From positions 1-62,127 of the forward strand of contig DASVSV010000208.1 in NCBI GenBank assembly GCA_036387915.1: 62,127 nucleotides of DNA, written 5' to 3'. Under the pieces are notes generated by a model. It worked only from the letters and a program-made list of their open reading frames with translations, did no database searches and had not been told where the DNA came from. Position 1 is the first letter of the stretch. Every line of letters begins with the position of its first letter. Source of the DNA: Thermoanaerobaculia bacterium. Its GTDB lineage: Bacteria > Acidobacteriota > Thermoanaerobaculia > Gp7-AA8. This document shows, piece by piece, positions 1,462 to 30,600 of the stretch. Made by a program: the position numbers and the translations under genes.

Positions 1462-1496
1462 GCGAAGCGCGATCATTGCATAGAATCGCGGCAGCC

Positions 1497-7586: not shown

Positions 7587-7716
7587 GGTTTCTCCTCGCG
7601 ACAGGACTCGGTGGACGGGACAGTGTTTTGACGGTGTCTGCCATGGGAGAGGCGCAAGGGGCACGTTTCCCTACCCGGACGGAGCGTGGGCGGCCGGTTT
7701 CGAATAAGCTCCCCCC

Positions 7717-8394
7717 ATGAAGCAGCCCACCGACCTGACCGTGGCTTCCCCCGAGCTCGACGCCGTCCTGGACGACACCGGCGTGCTGACCAATCCGCGG
7801 CCGGAGATCGACCGCGCGCAGTTGCAGCATCACCTGCGCGAGGCGCTGCGGCTGTTGCACGTCGACCTGGAGAACGAGAACGTGCTGGACACGCCGCGGC
7901 GGTGGGCGGAGTCGCTGATCCGGATGACCAGCGGCTACGACTACACGGACGTCAAGAAGTTGACCACCCTGTTCCGCAAGGCCTGCTCGCGCGCGGACGA
8001 GAACTGTCAGAACCTGGTGGTCATCGGCGGCACGTACAAGACGCTCTGCGCGCACCACATCCTCCCCTTTTACGGACGGTTCATCGTCGGCTACATCCCG
8101 GAGCGGATGATCATCGGCGCGTCGAAGATCCCGCGCATCGTGGAGGTGCACATGCGCCGGCTGCAGTCGCAGGAGCATCTCGCGCACGACGTCGCCGACA
8201 CGATCGAGAAGATCCTCGACCCGCGTGGCATCGCGGTCTGGATGGGCGGCGTGCATCTCTGCATGGTCATGCGGGGCGTGGAGCAGGAGTCGTCGTTCAT
8301 GGAGACGAACGTGCTCCGCGGCGCTTTCCTCAACGACGAGCGCACGCGCCAGGAGTTCATGTCCATCGTCAACCGCCGCGGCTCGCGGGATTAG
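7717..8394 (+). CDS. folE: GTP cyclohydrolase I
   Basis: LCAHHILPFYG...ASKIPRIVE...QSQEHL...GGVHLCMVMRGV are canonical FolE motifs. Confidence 0.92.
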   Translation: MKQPTDLTVASPELDAVLDDTGVLTNPRPEIDRAQLQHHLREALRLLHVDLENENVLDTPRRWAESLIRMTSGYDYTDVKKLTTLFRKACSRADENCQNLVVIGGTYKTLCAHHILPFYGRFIVGYIPERMIIGASKIPRIVEVHMRRLQSQEHLAHDVADTIEKILDPRGIAVWMGGVHLCMVMRGVEQESSFMETNVLRGAFLNDERTRQEFMSIVNRRGSRD

Positions 8395-8407
8395 CGCGGT
8401 CGCGGGA

Positions 8408-8571
8408 GAGGGACCGACGGGAGGCCTCCGGCGGGCGGGTACGACCGGCAGCGCTTGTTGGCCCAGCCTGATCGCACGCCCTATCTACGAAACACGTGTT
8501 TTGCGCGAAGACTGGTCCTACTAAGCGCTGCCGGTCGTACCGGCCCGCCGGAGGCCCCTTGTCGTTCCCTC
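8408..8571. repeat. Large imperfect inverted repeat (49-nt arms, 66-nt spacer) between folE and the SpoIIE-phosphatase gene
   Basis: The arm at 8408-8456 matches the reverse complement of 8523-8571 at 44 of 49 positions (hand alignment). The spacer contains the perfect 12-bp palindrome AAACACGTGTTT at 8490-8501. Confidence 0.75.
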
Positions 8572-8625
8572 CCCGCGCACCACGCCAAAACCCCCGACCC
8601 GCCGCGCCGTACACTTGTGCGGCCC

Positions 8626-11385
8626 ATGTCGCCGCGCACCCGGATTGTCCTCGTGTCCCTGCTCACCCTCGTGGTGATGGGCGGGACGCTCGTCCACATG
8701 GTGGCCCGCGCGCGGCACTGGCACGAGCAGGGGTGGAGCGGCGTCGGCTACCTCTTCGGAGAGAACGCCAGGTTCCAGGCGCAGATGATGGGCCTCGAGC
8801 TCTATCAGGTCATGATCACCGCGTCGAAGAGTCCGGCGGACGGGCGCCTCCACTATCGCGACGAGATCCTGACCCTGAACGGCATCCCGCGCGACGACGT
8901 CAAACGGCTGACCGAGCTGAACGCGCAGACGAAGCGCGGCGACACCGTCGTCTATCGCATCCGGCGCGGCAAAGAGATCCGCGACGTCCCGCTGCGCTTC
9001 GAGTCGCCGCTGCGCAGCCGCCACGTCATCCTGAGGCACCTGGCCGCGCTGACGGTCGGGCTGACCTTCGTGGCCATCGCCCTCTTCATCATGATTCGCG
9101 CGCCGCACGACACGCGGGCCACGGTGTTCTTCGCGCTGGCACTCCTCTCCGCCGTGGCGGTCATGGGCAACGCGTCCACTACTTACGAACAGATCCAGGC
9201 CCGCGGGATCGTCATCAGCGCCGCGCCGCCGGTGGACAGCTTCGTGATCTTCTCGGCCGCGGCGTTCATGTATCCGCCGCTGATCCTGCACCTGGCGCTG
9301 ATCTTTCCACGCCGGCGCCCCATCGCGGAACGGAATCCGATCGTCATCCGCTGGATCTACTCGGTCGCGGTGATGGCGGTGCTCTCGCTCGTCTTCACGG
9401 TGGTGATGATGTCGCTGATGAACTGGGACGATCCCGGCGCGGGCGAGGCCCGGCTGAAACAATTCGTCCGCCCGTTCTTCTATGGCCTGACGGCAGTGGC
9501 GGTCCTGTTCACGCTGCACGTGCTCTGGGCGGCGCGGCGCGAGGGAGTGAAGCAGGCCATCGTCGCACGGCCGTTGCGCATGTCCGTGGCCGCGATCGGC
9601 CTCCTCTTCGGCCTGACCCGCGGCGCCGGCTCCCTCCTCGGCGGCCACGCCGCCGGCATCCTCGGCGGACTCTCGATCGTGCTGCCGCTGGTGGCGATCT
9701 GCACTTTCCCCGTGCTGGCCCTGATCGCGTACGTGCGCAGTTACCTCGAGGCCAACGTCGAGGAGAAGCGGCAGGTGGCCTGGCCGATGTGGAGCCTGCT
9801 GCTCGTGGTCGGCGGGAAGATCGTGGCCGTCATCCTCAGCGTCGCGCTGGCATCCTGGGTGGCCCTGCGGCACCTCGACCTGATCGCCTGGCGCGGCGTG
9901 TTCGAGGCGCTGCAGCTCATTCCGACGCTGCTCACCCTGGCCATCCCGATCGCTTTCGCCGTGGCCATCCTCAAATACCGGCTGATGAACATCGACCTGA
10001 TCATCCGGAAGACGGTCGTCTACGCGATCCTCAGCGGCGCCATCATCGTGGTCTACCTTGGCCTGGTGGGCGGACTGGGGTCGGTCCTCGTCTATTCGTT
10101 CGGGCTCGAGAACCAGACCACGATGGTCATCGGCTCCACGCTGGTCGTGGCGCTGCTGTTCGTGCCTCTGCGCAACAAGCTGCAGTTCCTCGTCGACCGC
10201 AACCTGTTCCGCCACAAGTACGACTACCCGGCGGCGCTGAAGGCCATCTCCACCGACGCGCGCACGCTGACCGATGCGCATCAGTTCCTCAGCTCCACCG
10301 CGGAGAAGCTGCAGCAGGCCTTGCAGAACCGGGCCGTGGTGATCTTCGCCGAGCGCCAGGACGAATACGTCGCCCTGGCCAAAGTCGGCGTCGCCGACGC
10401 GCTCCTCGGGCGCCTGCGCGTGCCCTCCACTTTCGCCGAATCGCTCGACCGTCCATTCGACCCGCGCCGCCGCGCCCTGCCGCAGGAGACCGCGGCCGCG
10501 CTGGCGCGCGTCGAAGCGTCGCTGGTCGTGCCGGTCGGTACGCGCGCGTTCATCGCCGCGGCGCCGAAGTTGTCCGCGGGCGAATACGACGTCGAGGACA
10601 TCGACTTCTTCCGCTCCGTCGCCGAGCAGATCGACGTCGGGCTCGACCGCATCCGCATGCAGGCCGAGGAAGCGGATTACGAGCAGGCACGGCAGATTCA
10701 GCAGACCCTGTTGCCGCGCGACATGCCCCGCGTCGCGGGCATCGACGTCAGCGGCATCTGGCAGCCGGCGCGCACGATGGGCGGCGACTACTACGACCTG
10801 CTGCCGCTGCAGGAGAGCGAGCTGGCGGTCTGCATCGGCGACGTCGCCGGCAAGGGCATGCCCGCCGCGCTGCTGATGTCCGGACTGCAGGCCGCCGTAC
10901 GCGCGTCCGCGAGCAGCTCACCGCGCGATCTCTGCGAACGCGTGCGGCGGGTCGTGGTCTCGAGCCTCTCCGGCGGACGCTTCGTCACCTTCTTCTATGC
11001 GACGGTGGACACAGCCAACATGCGCCTGCGCTGGTGCAACGCGGGACACAACGCGCCGATCCTCGCACGCGCGGACGGCACGATCGTGCGGCTGGCGGAA
11101 GGCGGTCCGGCGTTCTCGCGCCTGCTCAAGAGCGACCGTTACGAGGAACGCGAGATCGCGCTGCAGTCCGGCGACCGGCTGGTGCTCTTCACCGACGGCG
11201 TGAGCGAGGCCATGGACGGCAACGGAGAGCTGTTCGGCGAGACTCGTATCGAAGAGCTCGTGTCCGATTGTCCCGATCTCCGCGCCAGCGAGCTGCAGAA
11301 AACCATCGTCGATGCGGCCAGCGCGTTCAGCGGAGGCGAGCTCGAGGACGATCTGACCCTCGTCGTCGTACGAATAACCGGGTAA
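8626..11385 (+). CDS. PDZ - polytopic membrane - SpoIIE/PP2C-type serine phosphatase sensor protein
   Basis: PDZ-like segment (ILTLNGIPRDD...GDTVVYRIRRG), about 10 hydrophobic helices, and a C-terminal PP2C/SpoIIE signature (GGDYYDL...GDVAGKGMPAALLMS...LFTDGVSEA...DDLTLVVV). ATG 8626 gives an N-terminus right before the first TM helix. The longest ORF starts at 8455, inside the inverted repeat. Confidence 0.85.
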   Translation: MSPRTRIVLVSLLTLVVMGGTLVHMVARARHWHEQGWSGVGYLFGENARFQAQMMGLELYQVMITASKSPADGRLHYRDEILTLNGIPRDDVKRLTELNAQTKRGDTVVYRIRRGKEIRDVPLRFESPLRSRHVILRHLAALTVGLTFVAIALFIMIRAPHDTRATVFFALALLSAVAVMGNASTTYEQIQARGIVISAAPPVDSFVIFSAAAFMYPPLILHLALIFPRRRPIAERNPIVIRWIYSVAVMAVLSLVFTVVMMSLMNWDDPGAGEARLKQFVRPFFYGLTAVAVLFTLHVLWAARREGVKQAIVARPLRMSVAAIGLLFGLTRGAGSLLGGHAAGILGGLSIVLPLVAICTFPVLALIAYVRSYLEANVEEKRQVAWPMWSLLLVVGGKIVAVILSVALASWVALRHLDLIAWRGVFEALQLIPTLLTLAIPIAFAVAILKYRLMNIDLIIRKTVVYAILSGAIIVVYLGLVGGLGSVLVYSFGLENQTTMVIGSTLVVALLFVPLRNKLQFLVDRNLFRHKYDYPAALKAISTDARTLTDAHQFLSSTAEKLQQALQNRAVVIFAERQDEYVALAKVGVADALLGRLRVPSTFAESLDRPFDPRRRALPQETAAALARVEASLVVPVGTRAFIAAAPKLSAGEYDVEDIDFFRSVAEQIDVGLDRIRMQAEEADYEQARQIQQTLLPRDMPRVAGIDVSGIWQPARTMGGDYYDLLPLQESELAVCIGDVAGKGMPAALLMSGLQAAVRASASSSPRDLCERVRRVVVSSLSGGRFVTFFYATVDTANMRLRWCNAGHNAPILARADGTIVRLAEGGPAFSRLLKSDRYEEREIALQSGDRLVLFTDGVSEAMDGNGELFGETRIEELVSDCPDLRASELQKTIVDAASAFSGGELEDDLTLVVVRITG

Positions 11386-13877: not shown

Positions 13878-15191
<1,314 letters not shown>

Positions 15192-15201
15192 GCGGCGAAG
15201 G

Positions 15202-15651
15202 CTATCGCGGCGGTTTGCAGGTCTGGTAGCTGCGGTAGAGCAGGGTGATGCTGCTGGCCGCGCTTTTATCGTCGTAGACCGAGTAGAGCTGCCCCCACGG
15301 CCAATCTGTTTTAGTGCTGCCGAGCGTGCGGACGAGCCACTCGTCGTGGCTCTTGCGCCGCGCTTCCTCTTTCTCCCGCGACCAGTCGTCCCACGACGTG
15401 CCGAAGCGCGGATCGCCGTCGATCAGGGTGATGCTGTGCAGGTGCTCGTCGTGAAAGAAGAGCGAGACGAGAAACTGTCGTCCGTCCACGAGCTGCGGCC
15501 GGAGGACCGCGTTGAACCAACCGGCTTTTTCGTTGGTGTAATCGCCGCTCACGAACATCGGCGAAGCGAGGGCCGACGACTTCGTGGTGTCGCGGCTGAC
15601 GACGCCTTCCGGCGTCGTCAGCTCACCCGTTAGAGGATCGATCTGAATCAT
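15202..15651 (-). CDS. Putative immunity protein for the RHS C-terminal toxin
   Basis: 149-aa cytoplasmic-looking ORF with no signal peptide. Its ATG overlaps the TGA of the RHS gene (ATGA at 15648-15651), the canonical position for a polymorphic-toxin immunity gene. No family was recognised. Confidence 0.65.
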   Translation of the reverse strand: MIQIDPLTGELTTPEGVVSRDTTKSSALASPMFVSGDYTNEKAGWFNAVLRPQLVDGRQFLVSLFFHDEHLHSITLIDGDPRFGTSWDDWSREKEEARRKSHDEWLVRTLGSTKTDWPWGQLYSVYDDKSAASSITLLYRSYQTCKPPR

Positions 15652-18600
15652 TTCTTCATATTAAACACGCGCACCGGCTCGAGGACGTCGGCGTACGACT
15701 CGATGAAATACTGGAATCCGCCGCCGCCCCCATGCTGGCGATTCGCTCTGGTGAGGCCGGCCGGCACCTCGATGTCTTCCTTTACACGATAAGCCTGAAT
15801 CCGGTCGCGGGGCGGGTACTTGCCGGGGCGCATGTCGACCTGAACGAGGTCATGGTAGTCCTTCTGGTTGAGCTTGCTCTTCTTGATCGTCGCCAGATCG
15901 GTGTACCACTGCCCCTGACCGGGGAACGCACCGTAAATGAGCTGACCCTTCTTCAGGCGTGTGATGCGGTATTTATCCTGGCCGCCGTACCCGGGATAGA
16001 GCTGCGCGTTGCGCGCCCGCTCGATCTTCCCGGCGCGGCGCTCGCCCAGGTTCGCCGCGGCCGCGGGTGTACGATTCGACACCGCCTGTCCGCGCACGTT
16101 GCGTCCGCGCTTCGCCCCGAGGGCAGTCAGGGCGAGCTGCGCGGCGGAGACGCCGCCGCGTGTGTAGTCGCCGTGTACCACCGCCTCGTGCAGCGAGATG
16201 GCTGTCTGTGCAACGGTGACGGCGTTGTCGACACGGTTCACAATGACCGACGCGCGCAGGACGGTGCGGACCACGCGGCCCGCGCGTCCAGCCATCGAGG
16301 CGGCGCGTACCAGCACGCCTCCACCCATGCCGCCGGTGGCGACGTTCGCGAGCACGGAGGCGCCGGTGAGCGCCATCCGCATCGCGTACTCCTTCCCGTC
16401 GATCCCCCCGGTCGCGTACTGATACGTGTCCCAGGCCGCGAAGGCGATGTCGACGGCGAAGCCCCACGCCTCGCCGGTGGGATCGTTCTTGTTGATCGGA
16501 TCGTTCGCCGCGTACGCATAGAGGTTCGGCGAGTCGACGTAGCCGCGAGGATCGGGGGTCAGCCAGGTGCCGGTACGCGGGTCGAACCAGCGCGCGCGCA
16601 CGTAGCTCTTGCCGGTCATCGGGTCGAGGAACGGGTGCGCGTGGAAGCTGGACGAAACGATCAGCGTGACCGGATTGCCGATCGGTGAGCCGGCCATGCG
16701 CGGCGTGCCGAGCGCGTAGAGGCTGGGAACGTCGTAGAGCGCGGTGGTCTGCTGTTCGTCCGCCGGGAGCGCGGCGAGCCACTGCGACAGATTGGCCAGC
16801 GACTCACGCACTTCGAGCGGCAGCAGCGCAGATGTGTACACCGGCTTCGTTGCGACCGCCCACGCCGGCGCGGCGAGGAACGGCTGCGCCGAGCTCCACG
16901 CTTCGGCGCGTGCGTCCTTCGTCACCGCGATCGAGAGAGCGGACGGCGTCAGGGTCTGGCCGTCCACGACGACCGGCTCCGTCGAGACGAGCGTGTTCCA
17001 CTCCGCCTCGGTCAGGCTCCACTGCACCGTGGCGCTGTTGATGAGCGACGGTGCATTGGTGGCCGCGCGCACGACCTTGCCGGCCGCGTCGATGACCGCC
17101 AGACGCACGCCTGCCGCCAGCGTCGACGGCGCGAAGTGCTCGGTGGACCGCAGCAGCACGTCGACGGCGGTGATCTTGCCATCGGGGTCGCGGCGCGCGG
17201 AGACCGAGACGCGATCGACCGCGCTGCCCTTCAGCACTGCTTCGTCTTCGCCGTACGGGCCGCCTTCGACGCTGCGCGAAACGATGCGTCCCTGTTCGTT
17301 CAGGATGGCGTCGAGTGAGCCGGCACCGCCCTCGTCGTAAATCGGGTAGAGACGGGCAACGCCGTTTGGCGCGGTCCCATCCGCCGCCGCGACTTCCAGC
17401 GGATCGTCGTAGCGCGCGCCGCCATGGATGATCTGGCGCACCAGACCACCGTTCTCGTCGATCTGAGGATTCTGGCTCGCGCCGGCCTTGTAGATGGCCA
17501 CGAGCTGATCGTCGACCGGGTCCCAGACGAACGTCGCATCCGGCGGAAGTGCGTCGGCGGCGATGACTTCGAAGCGGTCTTCGAGCTTCCAGTCGGTCTC
17601 GGTCGGATTGCTCGTCGCGCCGGCGTACTCCGCGCGGCGGCCCACCATGCGGTCGTCACCGCTGTAGAAGTACTTCACGCGACGGGGCGAGGCCGATTTC
17701 TGCGTGACGACGGAGAGACGGCCCTTCAGGTCGTATTCGTAGATGAACTGCCCGTCTTCACTGCGCTCGCCGCCGTTGAACGAGAACGCCTCGGCGGCGC
17801 TGCCGCGCTGCATCGACGCGATCTTGTGTCCCGGTGCTTCGCTGAACAGCAGCGACGGCGGATCGACCGGAGTGGTCTTCGTACGCATGAGCGCCGAGCG
17901 GAAGTCGGCGGAGTTGAGGTCCGCGCCATCCGGCGTGGAGCCTCCGTCGCGGGCGAGGCTGGTCGCGGTGAGACGGCCGCGTCCGTCGTAGGTCCACTCA
18001 TCCGCCCGCGCGCCGCCGGAGACGCCGAGGAGCTGCGCGCGGGATTTCTGGATGCCGTCCCAGGTGACGAAGGACCCGGCAACGGTGAGGCCACCCGATT
18101 TGACTTCCATCTTGTTGGGCAGGCCGGTGCCGCTGTCGTATCCGTAATCGCGCACGATCTGCGAGCCCGTCACGGTCGTCACGACGCGGCGGTCAGGACG
18201 ATTCGCGTTGCGGTAGTCCGCCTGCAGCAGTGAGCCGCTTCCGGCGCCGCCGGACATCTGCCGTTCGATGCCGATGAGATTGCCCATGGCGTCGTGCTGC
18301 TGCGTCACCGACCGCGTCCACGCGTTCGCCGATGAGAAGCCGGAGTACGTCGGCATCGTGAACGACGTCCGCTCACCGTGCTCGTTGTAGGTGTGGCGCT
18401 GCTCGTATTGATCGATCAGCGTGCCGCCGCGATAGCGCGACTGCGTAGTCTTGCCGGCGCGTCCCTCACCGTCGTAATCGTCGTAGTCGACCACCGCGTC
18501 CGGGGTCTTCCAGCGTGTGATCCGTCCAGCGGGGTCATAGGTGTATTCGTCCAGCACCACGCCGCTGCCGCCCGTGGTCCGTTCGATTTGTCCCTTGGCG

Positions 18601-21600
18601 TTGTATTCGAACGTCTGCAGCCGGCCCTGGCGGTCGGTGATCGACTTCACGCGGCTGCCTTCCCACACGATCTTCTCGGTGGTGCCGTCCCTGTACGTGC
18701 GCTGTGTCGCACGTCCGATGAGATCCGTCTGCGTCGCCGTGACCTCGCTGGACGGGTCGGTGTAGCTGTTCATCGTGCCGGCCGCGTTGTAGCCGAAGGT
18801 CGTGCTCGCGCCGCCCGGCAGCGTCTCGCGCTTCATCGAGCCCTGCGAGTCATACGAATACGTATGCGTCCCGCGCTGCGGCGACGACGAGGCCGTGACG
18901 TTGCCCATCTGGTCGTACTGCTTGGTCCATGAGAGAGAGCCGAGCGTCTGCGCCACGGCTTCGCCGAGGGTGTTGTACTGCATCGCCATCGAGTAGCTGC
19001 CGCCACCCTTCTCGGTCTTCTGCATCTTCTGCGGAAGTCTCCCGCTGTGACCGGAGGCCTGCGCCTGCTCGAAGATCTGACTGATCGACGTGGCGCTGCC
19101 GGCGCCGCTCGCGGTCGATTGCACGCGTCCGGCGGCGTCGAACTCCGTGCGCTGCGCACGGCCGCCGGCACTGACGCCGGTGGTGCGGCCCGCGCCGTCC
19201 CACGCGACTTCCATTGTGGTGGACTGCGACCCGGCCGTCCTGGTCACCGAGCGTAGACGGCCGCCGGCGTATTGCATCGTCCACGAGCGCAGCACCGAAC
19301 CGCTGGCGTCGCGTTCTTCAATGGTCAGCGGATTGCCCATCGCGTCGATCGTCGCGACCGTGCGCGTGCCGTCGGAGGAAAGAACACCGGTGAGGTTGCC
19401 CTGCGCGTCGTAGGCGAATGCGGTCGCGGTCAGCAGATCCGACTCCGCGACGACGTTGTCCTCGAGGTCGTGCGTGTAGTGCGCGACGATCGGGCTTCCG
19501 CCGGTGGTGAGCTCACGGCCGATCGGCCGGCCCAGCGAGTCGACGATCATCGTCGTCACCGCACCGCTGGGATGATTCGTGACGATCGTGCGTCCGTTGT
19601 ACTGGATCGTCGTCGTCGCCGTTCCCACGTCCGCAACGCCCGTCACGCTCTCCGACGTCTGCCGGCCCATGATGTCGTACGTGTACGTGGTGGTGACGTC
19701 GTCGCTGCCCTGCTTGCGCGTGTGCTTGCGCAGTTTGCCGGTAGCGTCGTACTCCCATTTCTCGTCGATGCCGCCGCTGGCGGACATGTGGATCGGGCGC
19801 TGCCACTTGTCGTATTCGATGGTGGTGACGGTGCCGCGGGCGTCGGTCTCGACGGTCTTTGTCGCGCTGGGGTAGTCGAGTTTCGTAAGCAGGCCGCCGT
19901 CCACGATGGACGTCGGGAGGGCGCGGCGGTGGGGGGAGTCGGTGGCCGGCGCGTAGGTGATGGTGGCGCTGGAGCCGGCGCTGGAGGCGTCGGTGCCGCC
20001 GCTGCCGGCGATCGTGGTGAGCTGGCCGGAGGCGTCGAACTTCTCGGTCTCGTTGATCTGATCGTTGTTCGCCGAGGTGTTCTTGTTGTTGCGGCTCGGC
20101 TCGGGCGAGTCGATCTTCAGCCCGTTCGCCGTCATCGAGGAGATGAACGTCGCCAGGTTGGCGCCGGCCTGGTAGGCGATGGTCTGGGCCACCGGCGGTG
20201 CGGCGCCGCCGGTCGTGTTCGAGCCGGTCATCACGTACCCCGGCGCTTCCGGCTCCACATTCTTCCAGGTGAAGGTCGTGCTCCGGACGCCGTCCAGCGA
20301 TGCAGTTGCGTAGTTGCCGCCCGGTCCGTAGGTGAAGCGATACGTGCGGTCCTGCGAACCGGCCGGCGGCACGCCCGGCGAGATGCTGCCGGGGAGCTGA
20401 CCGAACGGCGCCGTGCTGGTGCGGACGGCGGTCTCGGTGATCGAGAGAATGTGGGCGCGGTCGGCGTAGGGGTTGGTCGGCTGCTGCGTCAGCGAGTAAG
20501 TACGCGCCTGGCCGAGGGTGTCGGTCGTCGAGACGCTGGTGGGGCCGTTGTAGTTGAAGCTGGCTGTCTCGCCGGTGCCCCACTTCTGCGCGAGCAGGCG
20601 GTCGCGCTTGAAGCCGGAGCTCGGGTCGTACGTGAACTCGAGACGCGGGCCGCCGCCGCTGAGCACTTCATGCGGCGCGGTGATTCTGGCGAGGTTCGTC
20701 CGCATTTCGAGGACGTCGTTGAAGCCTCCGCCGCCCGGCCCGTACTCGTACGCCACGGCCGGACGTCCACCGCTGACGTTCTGCACCTCGGCCAGTTTGA
20801 CTTTCGTCAGCGTGCCGCTGGCGCTCTGGTACTCGTAGTCGATCTTGCGATCGCGCCAGTCGGTGACCTGCCGGATCATGCCCGGGAACGCGCCCGACGC
20901 GCCGGCCTCGGATTCCTTCCAGTACGTGAACTTCGTGGCGCGCTGCACCGGGTCGACGACCTGCGCCAGGCGGCCGGTCTCGTCATAGACGTAGCGAATG
21001 AGGTTGCCGGAGCCCGGCGCGGACGGGTCGTAGAACTCGTCCGTCTCGAGCGTGATCCGTCCGAGGTCGTCGAAGTCGGTGACGCGCCACTGCTGGTCGA
21101 TGATGCTCCAGCCGCGGCCCGTGCGGGCGAGCTTGAGGAACAATCCTTCCGGCGCCTTGTAGTCGCCGTTGACGTACTTGAACGTCCAGACGTCGCTGCC
21201 GTCGCGATATTCGACGTCGCCGTTCGGCAGCGCGCGGAGACGGCGCAGCAGCGCCGAGTCCCAACCCTGTCCGAACACGCTGCCACCCATGGTGCGCGAG
21301 CGATACGTGCGCTCGACCAGCAGTTCCGTGCCGGCGCGGCCGCCGACGTTGAGGTCCGTCGTCGCGCTGTGCAGCTCACCGGAGTGCAGGAAGATCGTCT
21401 CGGCGATCATGCCCGTCGCCACCGGCGGGTTCTGTCCCGCGGTCAGCACCTCCGTCGGCCGGATGGTGTCGGCCATGATGGTGGTGAAGAGGCCGGACAT
21501 CCGCTTCTGTTTGCCGAGGTACTCGTACTCGGTGCCTTCGAAGACCGTGTCGTCGCCGAGGCCGGCCAGTTCGGGACGGACGGTGAGATAGCGGCCATTC

Positions 21601-24600
21601 GTATAGAGCTCGTAGATGCCGTCGCTCTCGGTTTTCGTCTTGAGGAACTCCGGCCGCTCGCATGCGTAGCAGCCTGCTTCCGCCTTCTTCTCCTTCGAGG
21701 CGCCGTTCCAGTTGTACTGCTCACTGGCGCGCGGGTCGCTGACGGCGACGATCCACGGCGACATGTAGCGGTTGTAACCGCGCTGGTATTTGAGCTGGCT
21801 GGCCAGCGCGTCAGGCACGACACGCTTGAACTTGAAGTTGGTGGCGGCGCGGTCGCCGGTTTCCGACGTGCCGTCGCGGCGCTTGCGGCGCAGGTGCGCG
21901 CGCGGGAAGCCGTTCGGCGTCTGCTCGGTGATGGCGCCGGCGATGCGCTCGCTCTCGACGGCCATCCAGAGCTCGTTGTTCGGCATCGAGTTGAGCAGGC
22001 CGCCGGGCAGACCGACCTCGAGGCGGAACGCTCCCATGGACGCGTTCTCCTTGCACGGCGCCGGCTTGCCGGCGCAGAGGCCGTCGATGGTGGTCTTGAG
22101 ATGATCGGGAATGGCCACGCCGAGAGGAATGACGCCACCGACCTCGGTCAGGCCATTGCCGAGGTTGACCTTCATCTTCACGACCGGGTCGACCGCGGAG
22201 ACGGCCTTGACCACGCGCGCGGCCATGTTCGCGCCGTAGATGATGCCGGTGCTGGCGTCGAAGATCGGCGGCTGCGAGCCGGCCGTGAGACCCGGCTCCG
22301 ACTTCCAGATGATGCGCGGGTCGTCCGCGCCGATCTCGTTCGGATCGGACGGCGTGCCGGCGATGGCCTTCGCGGCCGTCGGGAAGAGACCCTCGACGTA
22401 GTTGCCGTCCGCGTCGAAGCGCTCGTCAATCCGGGAGAGGTCGACCAGCAGCACGCGGCCGTTCTTGTCCGTGACCACGGCGGTGTTCGAGTCCTGCATC
22501 ACGCGCAGGCCGACCGCGCCTCCGGGGATCCAGATGACGTCGGCGATGTGATAGTCGTCGAGGGGGAACGGCGGCGTGAAAAACGGGTCCCCGGTGGTCT
22601 CGACGACGACGATTCCGTAATCGAGCGCCGCCACGAGCAGGTAGTCGCGCTGCGCGGGGAGGTCGCGCAGCGTGCCGCGAATACCGCGCGTGTTCTCTTC
22701 CGCGGTGACCGACCAGTGCACCTGCGACATGGACATCGTGTGCATGTTCGGCGAGCCGATGGCGTTCCGCAGCGCCTGCATGCGCGGCGCTTCGTTGCCC
22801 GGCGGGAACGTGCGGAAGAGCAGGCCGGTCTCGCCGCGCTGGTCGCACGTGGCGTCGTTGCTCGGCGTGCCGGCCGCCGATCCGGAGAGGTGCACGCGGT
22901 AGTCGAGCACGCCCTTGGACGGATGGTTGGCGAAGATGTACAGATCGCCACTGGGATCACCGCGGACCTCGACGTCGGTGTTGATGTAGTTCTCGCCGAT
23001 GGCCCAGATCGGCGGCTCGATGCCGCATTCGCGGCCGACGATGCCGTTGCCGAGGAAGTGCTGCTCTTTATACCGGTTGGCCTGGGTCGTCCCCGGATAG
23101 CGATTCGACTCCATGGCGTTGATGTCGTAGACGCCGACGCCGTAGCCGAGGTGCGCAACGACCGCGTAGGCCCGGCGGTTCTTCACGATGCGAAGCTTGT
23201 CGGTCGGGCGCGCCAGCACGTTCTTGAGGGTGGCGCTGCCGCCGATGGTCGCGTCGGCGGACCAGCTCATGTCGAGATCGGGGTTCTCGATGGTGATGCG
23301 CTGGTAGTTGTACGTGTCGTTCGAGAACGGCACGGTCACGTTGTAGCTCTTCAGGTCTTCGATCGGGAAGTCGGCGGTCTCGCTGGCGCCGGTGCCGGCG
23401 ACGAAGAGCTGGCGGTCCGCAAAGTCCGTCGTGTCGTCCTGGTTGACGATCTTCACGCGGAACGGAATCGACTCGGGACGGTCGGAGAGGATGGTGTTGC
23501 TGGGCAGCCCGATCATCGAGCTGTAGCCCAGCTTCCAGTTGATGATCGACGACGCCTTCGACTGCTGCACCGTCGCACCGGCCACGAGGTCCTCGACGCG
23601 ATAGGTCAGCATCACGCCGACGATGTTCAGGTCGGCGGTGGTGACCACTCGGCCATGACGGTCGACCTGCACGGCCATCGTTTTGTAGATCGTGTTCGGC
23701 GGCCCGATGTGGGAGAGCTGCGGCGCGGTGCCGTTGATGGCGGCCGGGTTCGACATGTCGAACGTGCGTAGTCCGCCGTCGAGGGCAGCCACCATCAGCG
23801 CGTTGCCGTGCATGGCCATGCCGCGAATGACTCCGGTGTCGGCTGCCATGAACGAGCCGATCTCCCCTTCCGGCTTGCGGACGTGGAAAATCAGCGGGAG
23901 GTCGGCGCCGCCGCCGACCGCGACGAGGTTGTTGTTCGCCGCCGGCACCGTGCCCGCGCCGAGCTTGAGCCCCGCTCCCTCGGTGGTGGCATCGGTGAGC
24001 GTGCCCTTCAGTGTGAGACGGTAGACCGCCTCGCGCTGGAGCGCGCCAGGCAGAATGATGTTGATGCGCTTCTCGCCGGAATCGACGGTGAAGCGCGCGT
24101 GCGCGGTGATGTCGGTGTAGTTCGGCTGGCCGCCGGACGCCGGCTCCGGCGCCTGCTCCAGCTTGAGCTGCGTGTGAAGGAAGGCGTCGACGGCGCCGTC
24201 ATCGGACGGGTTCTCGCCGAGGAAGATCGCCTCGTTCAACACGATCGAGACGGGATGCGAGGCGTCGACGTCCTTCTGCTCGATGAGCAGCACGATGCGG
24301 TCGCCGAGCTTCGCACCGATGCTCAGCGAACCACCGGCGGTGCCGGAGACGGACGTGCCTTGCTTCACGTTGAGGAGCTGCACGTGCAGCTCCGAGTCGA
24401 GGGGATCGTCGCTCGGCGACACGACTACGTTGTCGTTCGCGACCGTGACGCTGAAGTTGCGGACCGTGCGGATCTCGATGTCCTCTACGTCGAGGTCGAG
24501 GATCTCGACCCGGAACGGACTGCCGAAGACCGGATACGGGCCGCTGTCATTCTGCTGCGGCGTGGGGATGGTGGCGATCTCGCCCGGCTCGCCGACCGGA

Positions 24601-27600
24601 ATCGGGTCGTATGCGCGCTGGAACGCCTGCAGCCCCGTGGCGCGGTCGATGCCGTAGACCGTGAACGGACGGCCGGTGATCACCGGGATGATCCGACCGC
24701 CGCGCTCGAAGTTATGGACGTACGGGTCGTAGTAGGACCAGAAGATGTCCCACATCAGGTCGTAGCCGGTCTGCAGCCCTTCCATCACCCCCCAGCCGAC
24801 GCTTCCGCCGACCGGAACCTTGATGTCCAGGACCATGTAGCGCCCGCCGCGGATGAGGCGGAGCATGTAGTCGCGGGCCTGCCGGCCGACCAGCGTGGAG
24901 TTCGTGCCGGTCTTGAGGTTCGTGACCCCGATCTTTGCGTTCTGCGTTTCCTCGTCGAGCACCGTCGTGAACTTGCCGTCCTTGACCTGCATCATGTCCA
25001 CGACCGCCAGACGCGGTCCGCGGACGGACATGCCCTTCCACGCCAGGATGAAGTCCCTGCCGGTGGTGTTGAGCCCCGGCGGCACCGCGACTTCGACGTC
25101 GAGCGGCTTGTTGGCGAAACCTTCGAAGTCGATGTTGACGCTGGTCGCGTAGTTGTTCTCGGCCTCGAGCTCCGGGATGTCGAGGAACTCGGCCTTCTGC
25201 GCGGAGTTCACGGTGACGATGGTCGGCGTGTCGAACGCACCCTCGGGCACGTTGACGGTGATGCCTTCCGGCGACGTGAACGTGACGGCCGCTCCCGCCG
25301 GAGCCACGAATCCTTTGCCGTCCTCGGTGACGAACGGCGTGAGCGCGTAGATGCCGGCCAGGGCGCCGTTGGTGTTGACGACCTGCAGGTCGATCAAGTC
25401 GCCCGTCGTCACGCGGTCGCGCACGTCGTCATCGCCGATGAGGAACGAGAACGAGCCGTCGCTCGCGGCGGTGGCCTGATACCGGACGAAAAAGTCGCGC
25501 ACGCGGCGCGTGGCCACGGCCTGCCAGCCGGCAGGCAGCGCGCCGGCATCGCCGGTGATGCGCGAGATGCCGGCTTCGTTCGGGATGGTGATGCGGATGC
25601 GCTCGCGGCGGATCTGCGTGTTGACGAAGACCGCCACGGTGGCGAACGAGAAGCTGGCGCTGCGCGCGAGCGTCGCCCCGTTGGTGCCGCGGATCGACTG
25701 CGAGATGACGACGCTGTACGCGGTGTTCGGCTCGAAGCGCTCGCCGGCGGTGAGCGTCCAGATGACACCGGTCGTCCCTTCGGAGGCGGCGCGGCCACTC
25801 ACGGTCTTGCCGGTGATGGCGTTGACGACGGTGATGGATTCGTTCGTCACGGAGGCAGGGTCGATGGCGGGCGTGAACGCGGCGCGGATGTTCGTGGTCA
25901 GCGCGACGTCGCGCGTGACGGTGCCAAATGTGAGCGCGGCCTGCGACGGGGGATCGCCTTTGAAGATGGTGACATTGCCGAGGACCGGCGGCTGCGGGAC
26001 GAGCAGCAGGTCGACGCGCACGACGGCGTCGGGATCGACCTGTGCGGCGTGCGTGTACGTCGCGCCGTCGCCGGTGGTGGTGTGGCGCGGGACGAGCGTG
26101 AACGGCGCGGCGGGCTTGGCCGGGACCGGCACGTTGTAGATGCCGTTCGTGCGCGTGAGCTCGTGCACGCCGAGGGGGTTGGCGATGACGCGGGCGTCGG
26201 AGAGCAGACGGCCCGTCAGGTCGCGCATGCGCACCGTGCCGGTGGCGAACGCAATCGGCGCGTCGGCGGCGAGGACGATGTAGCGGCCTTCGCGTACGAC
26301 GCCGTCGACGGGCAGCGCGGAGCGGTCGATGGACCTGGTGGTGAAGCGGATTGCGGGCGTCGCGGTCTGCGACGGGTCGACGGCCATCATCGGCGCGGCC
26401 AGGCGGACGATGCGGCCGTACGGCGTCTGGTCGAGCAGCTCGGCCAGGATGACCTGCGCGTTCGGCGCGGGCATCTTCGCCGCGTCGACGCTGAACGTGG
26501 CCCGGGCGGGGACGAACAACTCGACGCCGGCGATGGCGTCGGGCTGGCCGTCGCCGTCGAGGTCCTGCGGCGCGGGTTGCACGGCGCGCTGCAGCGTGAG
26601 CTGGAAGCCGCCGACGACGCGGAAGCCGGCGATGTTGCCGACCGCGGCGAGGTCGCTGGCGTTGAGCGAGGTCGCGGTCGCGCGCAGCGGCTCCGGCACG
26701 GCTCCGGTCGGGATCTCGATGGCCACCTTGTCGTCCGCGGGCACGCGTCCGCCCTCGGAACCGATGAGCGTTCCGCGGTCGAGGCGGCCGGGATACGGGA
26801 GGATGCGGATGTGGTCGAAGCCGACTTCGAGGATGACCTGCGCGGCTTTCGCGCTCGGCGCGAGGTGGAAGTCGGCGATGCCGAGGTCGCCGCTGAGGTT
26901 GCGGTAGAGGAGGAGGTCGGTGGCGAACGGAGGATCGAGGAGGCGCGAGCCGTCGGCGAGACGGAGCTCCTCGTCAATGTACGCTTGTACCGCGGTACCG
27001 CTGGGGAACTTCGCCTCCCCCGCGCCTTCGATGCGCAGCGTGGCCACGGTGCGGCCGGTGGGAACGACGATGGCCGGGTCGAGCTTGAAGTCGCGCTCGA
27101 CCAGCTCCGGCGCGGTGGCCGGCGCGGCGGGCACGCCCTGCAGCACGTCGCCCACGACCGGCAGCGGCGGCGGCGTGAGCCCCGGCGCCTTGTCGGAGTA
27201 GACCAGCGCGTACGCACCGGCGCCCGGAATCGGGAACGACGCGCGGCCGTCACCGGCCACGTTCACCGAGGACGCGAGCACGCGCCATTCGTCGCGCACC
27301 GCGTCGTAGTGCACGGCGGTGAGGTTCTGCGCCGCGGAGGTGACGGCGCCGGCGGGCGTGTGGAACGTGAGCGTCGCGGCGCTCAGCGAAGGCGCGTTCT
27401 CGAGCTGCACTTCGGCCGAGGCGATGGGCGACCAGCCGAGGGGGAGCAGGCCGGTGAGGGCCTGCGCGCTGATGGCGGTGAGCGTCACCTTCGCGCCGCT
27501 GGCGGCGGAGGGAACGGCCAGATCGACCTTCCGGGTGATGCCGGTGTCGCCGCCGTGCGTCAGCGCCAGCGCGGCGCCGGTGGACGTCTGCGACGGGCCG

Positions 27601-30600
27601 CGGTGCGTGAGACGGATGTCGATCGGGATCACGCCCGCGCCGGCCGGCACGATGATCTCGCGGAACACGCTGGTGTAGCCCGCGTGCGCGGCGCTGATCG
27701 TGTGTGCGCCTTCCGGCAGGCGGGCGAGATAGCGGCCGCGCGCGTCAGTGGTGGTGGTGACCGGCGCCGGAGAAGCAACGTCGACGGCGATGGTCACGCC
27801 CGGAAGCGGGCGGCCGGTGGTCGCGTCGTAGACCTCACCGGAGATGAAGCCGGAGCCGTCGCCCGTCTCCGGCTGACCGCCGGCGAGCGTGAACTCCTGC
27901 GTGTACGGCGTGGTCAGCTTGTTGCCGGTCGTGTCTTCGATCTGCGTCCCGACGGTGAGCGTGAACGCGCGCTGGGTCAGATCGGAGGCCGGCGTGACGG
28001 TGACGCTGTTGCCGGCGACGCTGGTGGTGCCGGCGACGGTGGTGCCGTCGCCGAGGGTGAGCACGATGCCGGCGCCGCCGACGCTCACCGTCGACGCGTC
28101 GAGCGCCTCGGAGAAGCTGATGGTCAACTTGTTGACGGTGCGGTCGAAGGCGGCGTTGAGCACCTGCGGACCGCTGCAGTCGACGCGCACGGTGAGCTCG
28201 GCCGCGGGCGAGAGGCTGCCGTCGGAGCCAACCACGCGCACGCGCACGACCGTGAAGCCGGACTGGCCGCTCATCGGATAGGTGAAGGTGAAGCGGCCAT
28301 GCGAATCGGCGGAGGTGGTGAGGACGAGCGTGCCCGACTCGAGGCGCACGCGCGCGCCCGGCGCGGCGGTGCCGGTCACGGACATCGACTGGCCGCAGAC
28401 GGCGCTGCCGACCGGGTCGACGTTCGGCGGCGTCGACGGGGCGGACGAGGCGACGGTGAAGCTGCTCGCGTAAGCCTCGGCGACGGCGGTGCCGGCGAGG
28501 TTCTTCGCGGCGCCGTTCACGCGCATCGTGTAACGGCCGCCCTTGGCGAGCAGCGTCGACGGCGCGAAGGTGAGCACGTCCTTGTCGAGGTAGAGCGAGC
28601 CGGAGACCGGCGCGCCGTTCGCGTCCTCGAGACGGAAGCCGCCGCTCAGCGAGGCCACGTCCATCGGCTGCGAGAAGAGCACGAGCAGCAGCGCGCCCGC
28701 GTCGACTTCGGTCGCGTTCTGCGCGGGGAATGACTCGACGACCTTCGGCGCGTCGTTGAGACGGGTGACGAAGATGACCGTCGCGGCGCTGGTGCCGTCC
28801 GGCTCCGTGACGCGCGCGACCACCGGCGTGGTCGCACCGGAGACCGGCGAGAACGTTGCGGTGGCGGTGTAGCTCGAGCCGCTGATGGTCGCGCCGTTGC
28901 CGTTGACGTCGACCAGCGCGCCCGCCTCCGCGGTGAAGGTGCCGGTGACGGTGAACGTGTTGCTGCCGGGGCCGAACCAGGACTGGCTTGCGGGGGAAGT
29001 GATGCTGATGCCGGGTGAGCCGGCCACGAGCTTCACGACGACCGTGGCCGTGGCCTCGCGGTTCAGGCGATCGCGCCCGGAGACGCGCAGGGTCTGGTCG
29101 CCGCTGGAGAGCGGCACGTCGATGGCCGCGAAGGCGCCGGTGGTGTCGCTGAAGCGCTCGGCGTTCGCGGGCCTGGTCTGGTTGCCGCTCAGGTTCGTGA
29201 CGACGATCGATGCGGGATCGATGTTCGTGTACGTGCCGCTGACGGTGATGCGGTTCACGCCGGTGGTGGCGTTGGCGGTCGGCGTGCTGATGGCGATCGA
29301 CGGCGCGTCCTTTTCGTAGACGCCGCGGCGCGAGGCGGTGGCGGTGCGTCCCGCGGCGTTGCGGCCGTGCGCGACGATGATGTTCAGTCCGTCCGCGAGC
29401 CGTACGGTGGGGACGGTGAAGGTCGTGCCGGTGATGGTGGCGGCGACGCCGTTCACGTCCGCGCTGGTCACGCCCGGGCCGACAGTGCCGCTGACCGCGA
29501 TCGTCTCCTGCGACGTCACGAAGCCTTCGGCCGGCGTATTGATGTTGATCGACGGATCGCCGGTGACGCGCTGCAGCGTGAGCGTGGCGGGCGTGCCGGT
29601 GGGCGTGCCGTTGGCGTCGGTGCAGTTGACGGTGACGACGTTCGTCCCTTCGTTCGGCAGCTCGACGGTCGCGGAGAACGAACCGTCGGCGACCACGGCG
29701 GGGACGCCGTTGGCCTTCACGCCGATCGCGCCGCCGGAGCGGCCGACGATGGTCACGGAACTCGACAGCACGACCGCGTTGTTGGTCGGGTCGAAGCCTT
29801 CGAGCTTGCAGTCGGCGGTGGCGGTGGCGGCGCCGATGAAGAACATCCGCTCCGCGCGCGACTGGTTGCCGGCGCGGTCGCGGGCCGTGGCGACGACGGA
29901 GTGTCCGCCGGCCGCGGTCACGCTCGACGGCGCGGCGGCGACGGTGCCGTCGATGGTGAGCTCGGTGGTCACGGAGCCGCCGGCATCGCTCGCGTCGAGC
30001 GAGATCGCGGCCCGCGTGGCGAAACGAGCGCCGTCGGAGAGCGGCTGGCTCGACTCGAGGATGGTCAGCGACGGCGGCGTGAAGTCGGCCGTGACGTGCG
30101 TCGACGCGGACGTCTGCAGTCCGTTCGACGCGGTGGCCGTGGCCGTGATCGTGTTCTCCCCTTCCGTCAGCGCGTAGCCGGTCAGGCGGAAGCCGCCCGG
30201 CGCGTCGACGGGCACGCTCTGCGTGCCGATGGTGACGGTCGTGCCGCGGCCCGCGGTGAGCAAGCGGCCGGCGACGTCGGTCGAACGGCGGTTGGTGATC
30301 GAGCGATCGGCGGGATACGTGAGGATGATGCCCGCACCGGCGTCGTCGCGCAGGACGGTCACGTCGGCGCGGCCGTTGTTGCCGGCGGCGTCGCGCGCGG
30401 CGATGAAGATCGCGTTGGCGCCATAGTCGAGCGGCAGCTCGACAGCGAATGAGCCGCCGTCGCCGAGGGTCAGCGGCGCGCCGTTGATCGTCGCGGCGAC
30501 GGCGCCGGTGACGGTGCCGCGCACTTCGACACGATCGCTGCGGATGACGGCGTCGTTGGCCGGCGAGGCGATGGTCACGGCCGGCGGTGTGCGGTCGATG

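What the first reader, a model, noticed from the sequence alone, without database searches (positions are those of the whole stretch)
15202..15651. Orphan-family 149-aa ORF overlapping the RHS stop (ATGA): candidate immunity protein
The ATG at 15649-15651 overlaps the TGA of the RHS gene. The product lacks a signal peptide and is the only ORF between the toxin and the convergent eno gene, which sits 10 nt from its stop. This position and size are canonical for a cognate immunity protein, but I cannot place the sequence in a known Imm family. No additional orphan toxin-tip and immunity cassettes follow, so the locus shows no sign of C-terminal tip displacement.
Basis: inference. Interest (0 to 1): 0.6.

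Follow-up and report, generated by a model that had tools for sequence, protein, structure and literature searches.

The report
RhsI1-like immunity gene behind NADase toxin
The small gene that overlaps the stop codon of the giant RHS toxin gene is real and is most likely the antidote that protects the cell from that protein's NAD-destroying tip, because toxin tip and small protein both resemble the two partners of a solved Serratia toxin-antidote complex; it is an ordinary weapon-and-shield pair, though the antidote family is in no catalogue.

Summary
A 149-aa ORF lies at 15202-15651 (-). Its ATG overlaps the TGA of a 5,815-aa RHS gene (ATGA), and it ends 10 nt from the convergent eno gene.

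"Orphan family" is wrong. Pfam and NCBIfam have no model, but an exhaustive search finds 752 cluster representatives.

The immunity reading is supported.
- The last ~110 residues of the RHS protein match PDB 6XTD chain A, the Serratia marcescens Rhs1-CT NAD(P)+ glycohydrolase ("Tne3"), at E=3e-13. Arg and Gln of the essential Phe/Arg/Gln triad are kept and the Phe is Trp.
- The ORF's family profile matches chain B of the same entry, the immunity protein RhsI1 (E=0.004).
- Its AlphaFold model (pLDDT 94) has 6xtd_B as its only significant PDB fold match.
- RhsI1's active-site-plugging loop aligns with the conserved family motif D-x-[K/R]-[S/G]-G.
- The same toxin-immunity pairing recurs in three other lineages.
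- In congeneric genomes, the same slot behind related giant RHS genes holds catalogued Imm families.

Caveat: about 26 of 30 readable homolog loci have no adjacent toxin of this family, so most members look like solitary (orphan) immunity genes.

Earlier notes of this scan report Rhs1-CT-like NADase tips on other DNA with other or uncatalogued immunity proteins. I checked none of them. The verdict is a new member of a known kind. Binding and protection are untested.

The parts
15202..15651 (-). 149-aa RhsI1-like immunity gene (P0001). It is cytoplasmic and has no signal peptide.
   Evidence: ORF and translation. Family of 752 clusters. Profile hit to 6xtd_B. AlphaFold pLDDT 93.7. Foldseek sole significant hit 6xtd_B. 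Coding GC3 pattern.
15648..15651 (-). ATGA overlap: the immunity ATG (15649-15651) overlaps the RHS TGA (15648-15650). This suggests translational coupling.
   Evidence: Sequence read directly. About a third of the downstream ORFs behind related RHS genes in the genus also start at offset -3.
15262..15273 (-). Codons for D127-D128-K129-S130, the tip of the predicted beta-hairpin (strands 120-127 and 132-139). It aligns with the RhsI1 inhibition loop D129-P130-H131-N132.
   Evidence: Alignments. Secondary structure. In the family, column 127 is D in 92% and column 129 is K or R in 93%. The loop's role in Serratia is described in PMC10539506.
15651..16055 (-). NAD(P)+ glycohydrolase toxin domain of the RHS protein (residues 5681-5815), of the Rhs1-CT / 'Tne3' type with a TNT-like fold.
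   Evidence: phmmer hit to 6xtd_A at E=3.2e-13. Weak Pfam TNT hit at E=0.07. W5730, R5763 and Q5795 align with the essential F1386, R1418 and Q1452. Y5703, D5707 and V5753 align with Y1359, D1363 and V1409.
16056..16469 (-). About 138-aa Gly/Ala-rich hydrophobic linker between the RHS cleavage motif and the NADase domain (residues 5543-5680).
   Evidence: Translation. No family match. No BLAST match to the tips of congeneric RHS genes. Function not tested.
16470..16517 (-). End-of-core motif YAYAANDPINKNDPTGE, which marks the start of the variable tip.
   Evidence: TIGR03696 Rhs_assc_core hit at E=4.8e-5. The motif is conserved in 24 of 30 loci fetched from same-genus genomes (the window's own among them) and is followed there by unrelated tips.
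15648..33095 (-). Whole 5,815-aa RHS gene that carries the toxin tip. It has a Sec-type N-terminus, Ig-like domains, DUF6531 and RHS repeats.
13914..15191 (+). Convergent enolase gene. It bounds the module and is not part of it.
   Evidence: The same order RHS - immunity - eno occurs in the related contig L001.

Best explanation
ORF 15202-15651 (-) encodes the cognate immunity protein of the NAD(P)+ glycohydrolase domain at the C-terminus of the 5,815-aa RHS protein. It is a distant homolog of Serratia marcescens RhsI1.

Shown here:
- The gene is real and conserved.
- It belongs to a large family that is in no catalogue.
- Toxin tip and small protein each resemble one chain of the solved Rhs1-CT-RhsI1 complex.
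- The toxin keeps Arg and Gln of the essential triad, with Trp in place of the Phe.

Inferred:
- The two genes are co-transcribed and translationally coupled through the ATGA overlap.
- The protein stays in the cytoplasm and binds the NADase domain 1:1.
- It covers the active-site cleft. The hairpin tip D127-D128-K129-S130 places a basic side chain (Lys129, where RhsI1 has His131) against the aromatic and Tyr residues of the cleft (W5730, Y5703).
- This protects the producer, and sister cells that receive the toxin, from NAD(P)+ depletion.

The route by which the tip is delivered is not established. The RHS protein has a Sec-type N-terminus and no PAAR domain.
For: 1. The tip matches 6xtd_A (Rhs1-CT NADase) at E=3.2e-13. 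The residues essential for toxicity in Serratia, F1386, R1418 and Q1452 (PMC10539506), align with W5730, R5763 and Q5795. The Tyr, Asp, Gln-Val, Arg and Gln positions are invariant in five related tips.

2. The family profile matches 6xtd_B (RhsI1) at E=0.0039 over profile positions 2-140. hhalign gives E=2e-4. The AlphaFold model has pLDDT 93.7 and pTM 0.86. Foldseek against the PDB gives one hit below E=0.001, which is 6xtd_B with probability 1.0 and TM 0.63/0.58. The next hit has E=0.3.

3. The RhsI1 inhibition loop aligns with a highly conserved family motif: D127 in 92% and K/R129 in 93% of members. [quoted passage not shown]

4. The pairing recurs. RHS proteins in L012 (a Myxococcales MAG) and L045, and a short tip ORF in L025/L027, carry the same toxin domain directly upstream of a family member. 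Toxin and immunity diverge in parallel.

5. Genus comparison. The tips after the conserved DPxG motif are mutually unrelated. They are followed by small ORFs, often overlapping by ATGA. These include Imm33-like, Imm11 and Imm44 proteins. The one pair of homologous tips (L066 and L070) has homologous downstream ORFs.

6. The ortholog in L001 has 11 synonymous and 7 non-synonymous codon changes, and the tip (93% identical) and the immunity protein (95%) are kept together.
Against: - No experiment and no complex model was possible.
- Sequence similarity to RhsI1 is marginal: 16% identity, hhalign probability 46%, Foldseek rmsd 5.5 A.
- About 26 of 30 readable homolog loci have no toxin of this family upstream. 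Their neighbours are ordinary genes such as thioredoxin, FtsX/MacB, DJ-1, MFS, a kinase and PIN.
- Nine genomes with such copies have no toxin domain at all. The family could therefore have another primary role.
- In Serratia, the H131A mutant still neutralises the toxin.
- The toxin-linked member in L012 has YYPQDG in place of YDxKSG. The loop residue is therefore not indispensable.
Confidence: 0.85

Rival explanations
1. The family has a different main cellular job, for example binding or regulating an endogenous NAD-related enzyme. On this view its position behind the RHS toxin is secondary or coincidental, and it may not neutralise this toxin.
For: Most family members are solitary and sit in unrelated housekeeping contexts. 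Nine such genomes lack the toxin domain. The family is unusually well conserved for an immunity protein, for example in SWxDWSxEKExxRKxxHDxWL. One member lies beside an ADP-ribosylglycohydrolase fragment.
Against: Where a polymorphic-toxin gene adjoined, its tip was of the one family whose complex with RhsI1 is solved. The conserved motifs fall on elements that the paper names as the RhsI1 interface, the beta7-beta8 link and the beta9-beta10 loop. That mapping was done by alignment only. Solitary immunity genes are a documented phenomenon (PMC10539506).
Confidence: 0.08
2. The protein is a helper for the toxin tip, acting as a chaperone, stabiliser or export adaptor, and is not an inhibitor.
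For: Some small genes next to RHS/T6SS effectors are adaptors. Translational coupling would suit a 1:1 partner of any kind.
Against: No match to any chaperone or adaptor family in the Pfam scan. Its only structural relative is an immunity protein that blocks the active site. It lies downstream of the toxin, in the slot that holds Imm families in the genus.
Confidence: 0.04
3. The ORF is a chance open frame in GC-rich DNA and encodes nothing.
For: Many ORFs of 50-150 aa occur by chance in this window. Two shadow ORFs overlap it.
Against: 752 homolog clusters. pLDDT 93.7. Coding GC3 pattern, unlike the shadow ORFs. A conserved syntenic ortholog with mostly synonymous change.
Confidence: 0.01

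Closest known systems
Serratia marcescens Db10 Rhs1-CT / RhsI1 (PDB 6XTD; proposed 'Tne3' NADase effector-immunity pair; Hagan et al. 2023, PMC10539506)
   Same: Both partners are homologous. The tip matches chain A at E=3e-13 and keeps the essential residues. The small protein matches chain B by profile (E=0.004) and by fold, as the sole significant Foldseek hit. The gene order, RHS tip followed immediately by the immunity gene, is the same. The inhibition loop falls at the same hairpin.
   Different: Only about 16% identity to RhsI1. Lys, not His, is at the loop tip. There is a strong SWxDWSxEKE-helix motif that RhsI1 has only in vestigial form. The carrier is a 5,815-aa RHS protein with a Sec signal and Ig-like domains, from a genome an earlier, unchecked note assigns to Acidobacteriota, rather than a ~1,470-aa PAAR-Rhs fired by a T6SS. 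A 138-aa hydrophobic linker precedes the toxin.
Tse6-Tsi6 (PDB 4ZV0) and Tne2-Tni2 (PDB 6B12), T6SS NADase effector-immunity pairs
   Same: Same logic: a TNT-like-fold NAD(P)+ glycohydrolase is neutralised by a small cytoplasmic protein that occludes the cleft with a basic residue (Lys62 or Arg153; PMC10539506).
   Different: According to the paper, these immunity proteins have unrelated folds. Neither appeared in the profile or fold searches.
Mycobacterium tuberculosis TNT-IFT (PDB 4QLP)
   Same: Broad TNT-like NADase fold. The tip has a weak Pfam TNT hit at E=0.07.
   Different: IFT is unrelated. It gave no sequence or fold match. The context differs (CpnT outer-membrane protein, host-directed).
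Catalogued polymorphic-toxin immunity families (SUKH/SMI1_KNR4, Imm11, Imm33, Imm44 and others)
   Same: Same genomic slot and size. These families occupy the equivalent position behind related RHS genes in the genus. A SUKH-1 gene follows another toxin in this genome.
   Different: Neither P0001 nor 100 family members match any of them.

Membership tests
RhsI1-type NADase immunity proteins (prototype S. marcescens Db10 RhsI1, PDB 6XTD chain B) | Detectable sequence homology to RhsI1 over the full length | tested here: met
   hmmsearch of the 100-sequence family profile against the PDB finds 6xtd_B at E=0.0039, covering profile positions 2-140 and chain residues 4-144. hhalign gives E=2e-4 with probability 46%. 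The similarity is marginal but full-length and specific.
RhsI1-type NADase immunity proteins (prototype S. marcescens Db10 RhsI1, PDB 6XTD chain B) | RhsI1 alpha/beta fold: small N-terminal sheet, short helix, then a main antiparallel sheet ending in the beta9-beta10 hairpin | tested here: met
   AlphaFold model with pLDDT 93.7. Foldseek against the PDB gives 6xtd_B as the only hit with E<0.001, at probability 1.0 and TM 0.63/0.58. The rmsd of 5.5 A shows real divergence. The fold description comes from PMC10539506.
RhsI1-type NADase immunity proteins (prototype S. marcescens Db10 RhsI1, PDB 6XTD chain B) | Encoded immediately downstream of an Rhs1-CT-type NADase tip | tested here: met
   ATGA overlap with the RHS gene. 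The tip matches 6xtd_A at E=3.2e-13. The same arrangement occurs in L012, L045, L025/L027 and L001.
RhsI1-type NADase immunity proteins (prototype S. marcescens Db10 RhsI1, PDB 6XTD chain B) | Inhibition loop carrying a basic residue that enters the catalytic cleft (D129-P130-H131-N132 in RhsI1) | tested here: inconclusive
   The loop aligns with D127-D128-K129-S130 at a predicted hairpin tip. Asp is kept in 92% and K/R in 93% of the family. Insertion into the cleft could not be modelled. H131A is dispensable in Serratia, and the L012 member lacks the motif.
RhsI1-type NADase immunity proteins (prototype S. marcescens Db10 RhsI1, PDB 6XTD chain B) | Binds and neutralises the cognate toxin | not testable with these tools
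   This needs co-expression rescue, a pull-down and an NADase inhibition assay. No multimer prediction was available.
Rhs1-CT / 'Tne3' NAD(P)+ glycohydrolase toxin domain (for the upstream tip) | Homology to Rhs1-CT with the residues essential for toxicity (F1386, R1418, Q1452) | tested here: met
   phmmer E=3.2e-13. W5730, R5763 and Q5795 align with them. The aromatic residue is Trp instead of Phe. The mutational data are from PMC10539506. Enzyme activity was not tested.
SUKH / SMI1_KNR4 and other Pfam Imm families | Match to the family HMM above threshold | tested here: not met
   P0001 has no Pfam hit with E below 0.04, and none near a gathering threshold. None of 100 family members matched. 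NCBIfam gave no hit with E below 0.04.
IFT (immunity factor for TNT), Tsi6, Tni2 | Sequence or fold similarity to the solved immunity chains (4QLP, 4ZV0, 6B12) | tested here: not met
   None appears in the PDB profile search at E<=10. None appears among the 50 best Foldseek hits.

The most novel reading that the evidence does not exclude
The RhsI1-like proteins form a large family that is in no catalogue and spans many phyla. At least 752 clusters at 50% identity were found, and the fetched loci come from MAGs labelled Acidobacteriota (Pyrinomonadales), Myxococcota, Planctomycetota, Bacteroidota, Gemmatimonadota and Bacillota. Most members are solitary genes in genomes without the toxin, yet they keep the active-site-plugging D-x-[K/R]-[S/G]-G loop. 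On this reading the family is mainly a standing, broadly cross-protective shield against Tne3-type NADases in soil communities. The window would hold one of the few true cognate pairs, mounted on a Sec-exported 5,815-aa RHS protein that would have to deliver its tip without a PAAR/T6SS spike.
Probability: 0.35. Interest if true: 0.5.

Novelty: new member of a known kind. Interest (0 to 1): 0.3.

Why it matters
- It turns an unannotated small ORF into a testable toxin-immunity pair with a structural template (6XTD).
- It extends the RhsI1 immunity fold, described in 2023 as previously unobserved, from Serratia to soil bacteria of several phyla.
- It defines a family of several hundred clusters that Pfam and NCBIfam lack, which could be turned into a model for annotation.
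- Most members are solitary and keep the inhibitory loop. That offers a tractable case for asking how far orphan immunity genes cross-protect against a toxin class.
- For the window itself the result is ordinary: a polymorphic-toxin tip with its antidote.

Tried and rejected
Searches that gave nothing useful:
- Pfam and NCBIfam scans of P0001 gave only noise (Vault E=0.046, YrbL E=0.045). A Pfam scan of 100 family members gave one weak DUF6984 hit.
- The word-indexed protein search found only the 95% ortholog. That would have suggested an orphan. The exhaustive phmmer search overturned it.
- Single-sequence AlphaFold failed (pLDDT 39). The run with the alignment succeeded.
A 15-sequence subset worked, but it biases the sample towards members with SWDDWS.
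- tblastn with the toxin tip against homolog loci found nothing beyond L001. Only phmmer and jackhmmer recovered the divergent tips.

Negative results on distribution:
- No homolog of the immunity protein in 34 same-genus and 26 further related genomes.
- The toxin domain was found in only 1 other of 400 genomes of the phylum. That weak hit (L021) has no immunity homolog within the fetched 3.3-kb locus.

Rejected readings:
- Chance ORF.
- SUKH/Imm, IFT, Tsi6 or Tni2 membership.
- T6SS-spike delivery as a given. The genome has TssC and Hcp on another contig, but the RHS protein has a Sec-type N-terminus and no PAAR domain.

Full report
**1. The observation**

The ORF listing gives a 149-aa ORF at 15202..15651 on the minus strand and a 5,815-aa ORF at 15648..33095 on the same strand. 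The junction reads AAGAAATGATTCAG, so the ATG at 15649-15651 overlaps the RHS TGA. The convergent gene at 13914..15191 is enolase. Its stop lies 10 nt from the ORF's stop.

The frame is open for only three codons upstream of the ATG, and homologs start at the same place. The N-terminus has no hydrophobic stretch (read by eye).

ORFs of this length are frequent in this 67.5% GC window, so length alone means little. Four results show it is a gene:
- The ORF has a coding GC pattern (GC1/2/3 = 0.57/0.47/0.82), whereas the two overlapping shadow ORFs do not.
- A soil-metagenome contig carries a 95%-identical ortholog in the same order, RHS (5,821 aa) - ORF - eno - rhodanese. It differs by 11 synonymous and 7 non-synonymous codons.
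- The ORF has hundreds of homologs.
- It folds confidently in prediction.

**2. Not an orphan family**

Pfam and NCBIfam give nothing for the protein, and Pfam gives nothing for 100 of its relatives. The word-indexed search found only the ortholog.

The exhaustive phmmer search of 1.84 billion cluster representatives found 752 proteins at E<=1e-3 and 183 at E<=1e-10. Most are stand-alone proteins of 135-150 aa. The consensus is MIDxxTG...FGxSWxDWSEEKExxRKxxHDxWL...WGxVxSxYDxKSGxSxI. A few are tandem duplicates, or carry N-terminal CxxC-rich or TPR extensions.

No homolog was found in 34 same-genus and 26 more distant related genomes. There is one copy in the window's own assembly.

**3. What it resembles**

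The last ~110 residues of the RHS protein match PDB 6XTD chain A at E=3.2e-13. The entry is the 1.3-A complex of the Serratia marcescens Db10 Rhs1 C-terminal toxin with its immunity protein RhsI1. The toxin is an NAD(P)+ glycohydrolase of the TNT-like fold, proposed as subgroup Tne3 (PMC10539506).

A profile of the ORF's family matches chain B of the same entry, RhsI1, at E=0.0039 over essentially the full length of both. hhalign gives E=2e-4 with probability 46%.

With the 100-sequence alignment, AlphaFold2 gives pLDDT 93.7 and pTM 0.86. Foldseek against 350,542 PDB chains returns exactly one hit below E=0.001. It is 6xtd_B, at E=2.5e-4, probability 1.0 and TM 0.63/0.58. The next hit has E=0.3.

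Each link to RhsI1 is weak on its own: 16% identity and rmsd 5.5 A. Even so, the sequence profile, the fold search and the neighbour's identity all point to the same PDB entry.

IFT, Tsi6 and Tni2 did not appear in either the profile or the fold search, and no SUKH/Imm family matched in the Pfam scans.

**4. Residue-level reading**

The offset between chain and paper numbering was fixed from the alignment. The checkpoints Y1359, D1363, S1384, F1386, V1409, L1410, H1412, R1418, I1438, S1439 and Q1452 all fall on the right letters.

The residues whose alanine substitution abolishes toxicity in Serratia are F1386, R1418 and Q1452. They align with W5730, R5763 and Q5795. Y1359, D1363 and V1409 align with Y5703, D5707 and V5753. 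These positions are invariant in five related tips, with the aromatic position W or F. The tip is therefore probably an active NADase. Activity is inferred, not shown.

In RhsI1, the beta9-beta10 loop D129-P130-H131-N132 enters the catalytic cleft. Tsi6 and Tni2 place Lys62 and Arg153 in the same spot. That loop aligns with D127-D128-K129-S130 of the ORF, at the tip of the predicted hairpin between strands 120-127 and 132-139. Across 100 family members, Asp127 is kept in 92% and position 129 is Lys or Arg in 93%.

Two caveats apply:
- H131A RhsI1 still neutralises its toxin.
- The toxin-linked member in L012 reads YYPQDG at this point.

**5. Genomic context of relatives**

I fetched 10 loci from species-representative genomes, 23 from metagenomes and several by exact-protein look-up.

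An iterative search with the window's tip found the same toxin domain directly upstream of the family member in these loci:
- L001/L031, the ortholog.
- L012, a Myxococcales MAG, where the upstream protein is an RHS protein.
- L045, where the upstream protein is an RHS protein with DUF6531.
- L025/L027, a short 126-154-aa tip ORF. On a sister contig the same immunity gene lies next to a YD-shell gene.

Toxin and immunity identities fall together across these pairs.

Of the loci with at least 400 nt of upstream sequence, 4 groups have the toxin and 26 loci do not. Some of the 26 are close relatives of one another. Their upstream neighbours include thioredoxin, FtsX/MacB, YdeI/OmdA, DJ-1/PfpI, an MFS transporter, a protein kinase, a PIN domain, a CPBP protease and an amidohydrolase.

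In nine genomes with such solitary copies, the toxin profile found nothing anywhere, while the positive-control genome (that of L012) scored E=5e-61. These are MAGs, so absence is not proven.

I do not take it as a refutation. Where a polymorphic-toxin gene was found adjoining a family member (all four cases), its tip belonged to this one toxin family. Solitary immunity genes are also documented (PMC10539506). The result does leave room for a different primary role of the family, which I put at about 8%.

**6. The slot in the genus**

A search with the last 372 residues of the RHS core found related, mostly giant RHS genes in 25 of 34 congeneric genomes.

After the conserved YxFxxxDPxNxxDPxG motif, most of the complete tips are 250-313 aa long, and almost none resembles another. 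Nearly all are followed by a small same-strand ORF, which starts at offset -3 (ATGA) in about a third of cases. The one clearly homologous tip pair, L066 and L070 (33% identity), has homologous downstream ORFs (31% identity).

Nine of these downstream ORFs were scanned. Five hit Imm33-like, Imm11, Imm44, DUF4265 or pentapeptide-repeat models.

The position behind the tip is thus an immunity slot throughout the genus, and tip plus small gene behave as one exchangeable unit. GC3 is 0.84 in the tip and 0.82 in the ORF, against 0.91 for the whole RHS gene and for eno. That is a weak hint that the unit was acquired.

**7. Mechanism and what remains open**

Most likely the two genes are co-transcribed and translationally coupled. 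The cytoplasmic 149-aa protein binds the NADase domain and blocks its cleft. This protects the producer before export, and protects kin after delivery.

Delivery is unresolved. The RHS protein has a Sec-type N-terminus, Ig-like domains, DUF6531 and RHS repeats, but no PAAR domain. A 138-aa hydrophobic linker precedes the toxin. The genome does encode TssC and Hcp on another contig.

No complex could be modelled.

**8. Comparison and verdict**

This is a new, distant member of the RhsI1 immunity kind, paired with a Tne3-type NADase tip. The literature recognises NADase families Tne1 to Tne5. The modest new content is as follows:
- The family is large and uncatalogued.
- Most members are solitary.
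- The family keeps a basic loop tip.
- The carrier is unusual.

Earlier notes of this scan report Rhs1-CT-like NADase tips on other DNA. At least one is paired with a different immunity family (DUF6966), and others with uncatalogued or unnamed families. I did not check those.

Confidence that the ORF is the cognate immunity protein is 0.85. Interest is 0.3.

Noticed in passing
L085 (own genome, contig C461) 2191-3771 (+) and 3992-4486 (+): There is a second polymorphic-toxin cassette in the same genome. A 526-aa ORF carries the RHS core-end motif and a partial Tox-SHH (HNH/EndoVII) hit. A SUKH-1 (SMI1_KNR4) immunity-type gene follows it.
   Followed up: partly
L056-L084 (same-genus genomes): Giant RHS genes with open frames of up to about 7,400 codons are common in the genus. 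Their tips after the DPxG motif are hypervariable, and most of the complete ones are 250-313 aa long. Short ORFs of 300-650 aa that match only the last 60-75 residues of the core look like displaced or orphan tips.
   Followed up: partly
window 16056-16469 (-): A 138-aa Gly/Ala-rich hydrophobic segment lies between the RHS cleavage motif and the NADase domain. It matches no family and has no BLAST similarity to the equivalent part of congeneric tips. It may be a membrane-translocation element.
   Followed up: no
Proteins P0013, P0034; P0006, P0010, P0012, P0015; P0005: The family occurs in fused forms. These are tandem duplications of the immunity domain, N-terminal extensions with paired CxxC motifs (P0012 carries PF26783), and a TPR-containing N-terminus.
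   Followed up: no
L033 3603-4001 (+), directly upstream of a family member at 4004-4453: A small ORF directly upstream of a family member has a partial ADP-ribosylglycohydrolase hit (E=2.4e-7). This is another NAD/ADP-ribose-related neighbour.
   Followed up: no
L021 (G076:C2) 1486-2559 (+): This is the only other hit to the toxin domain among 400 genomes of the phylum. It is a 358-aa frame with a partial NADase-like segment near its N-terminus. It has no Pfam match and no immunity-family gene nearby.
   Followed up: partly
own genome contig C376, about 7339-9074 (-): T6SS sheath (TssC/VipB, E=3e-136) and Hcp (E=3e-32) genes are present in the genome, far from the RHS locus.
   Followed up: no
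window 15651-16469 and 15202-15651 (-): The tip and the immunity gene have a GC3 of 0.84 and 0.82, against 0.91 for the whole RHS gene and for eno. This is a weak compositional hint that the unit was acquired.
   Followed up: no
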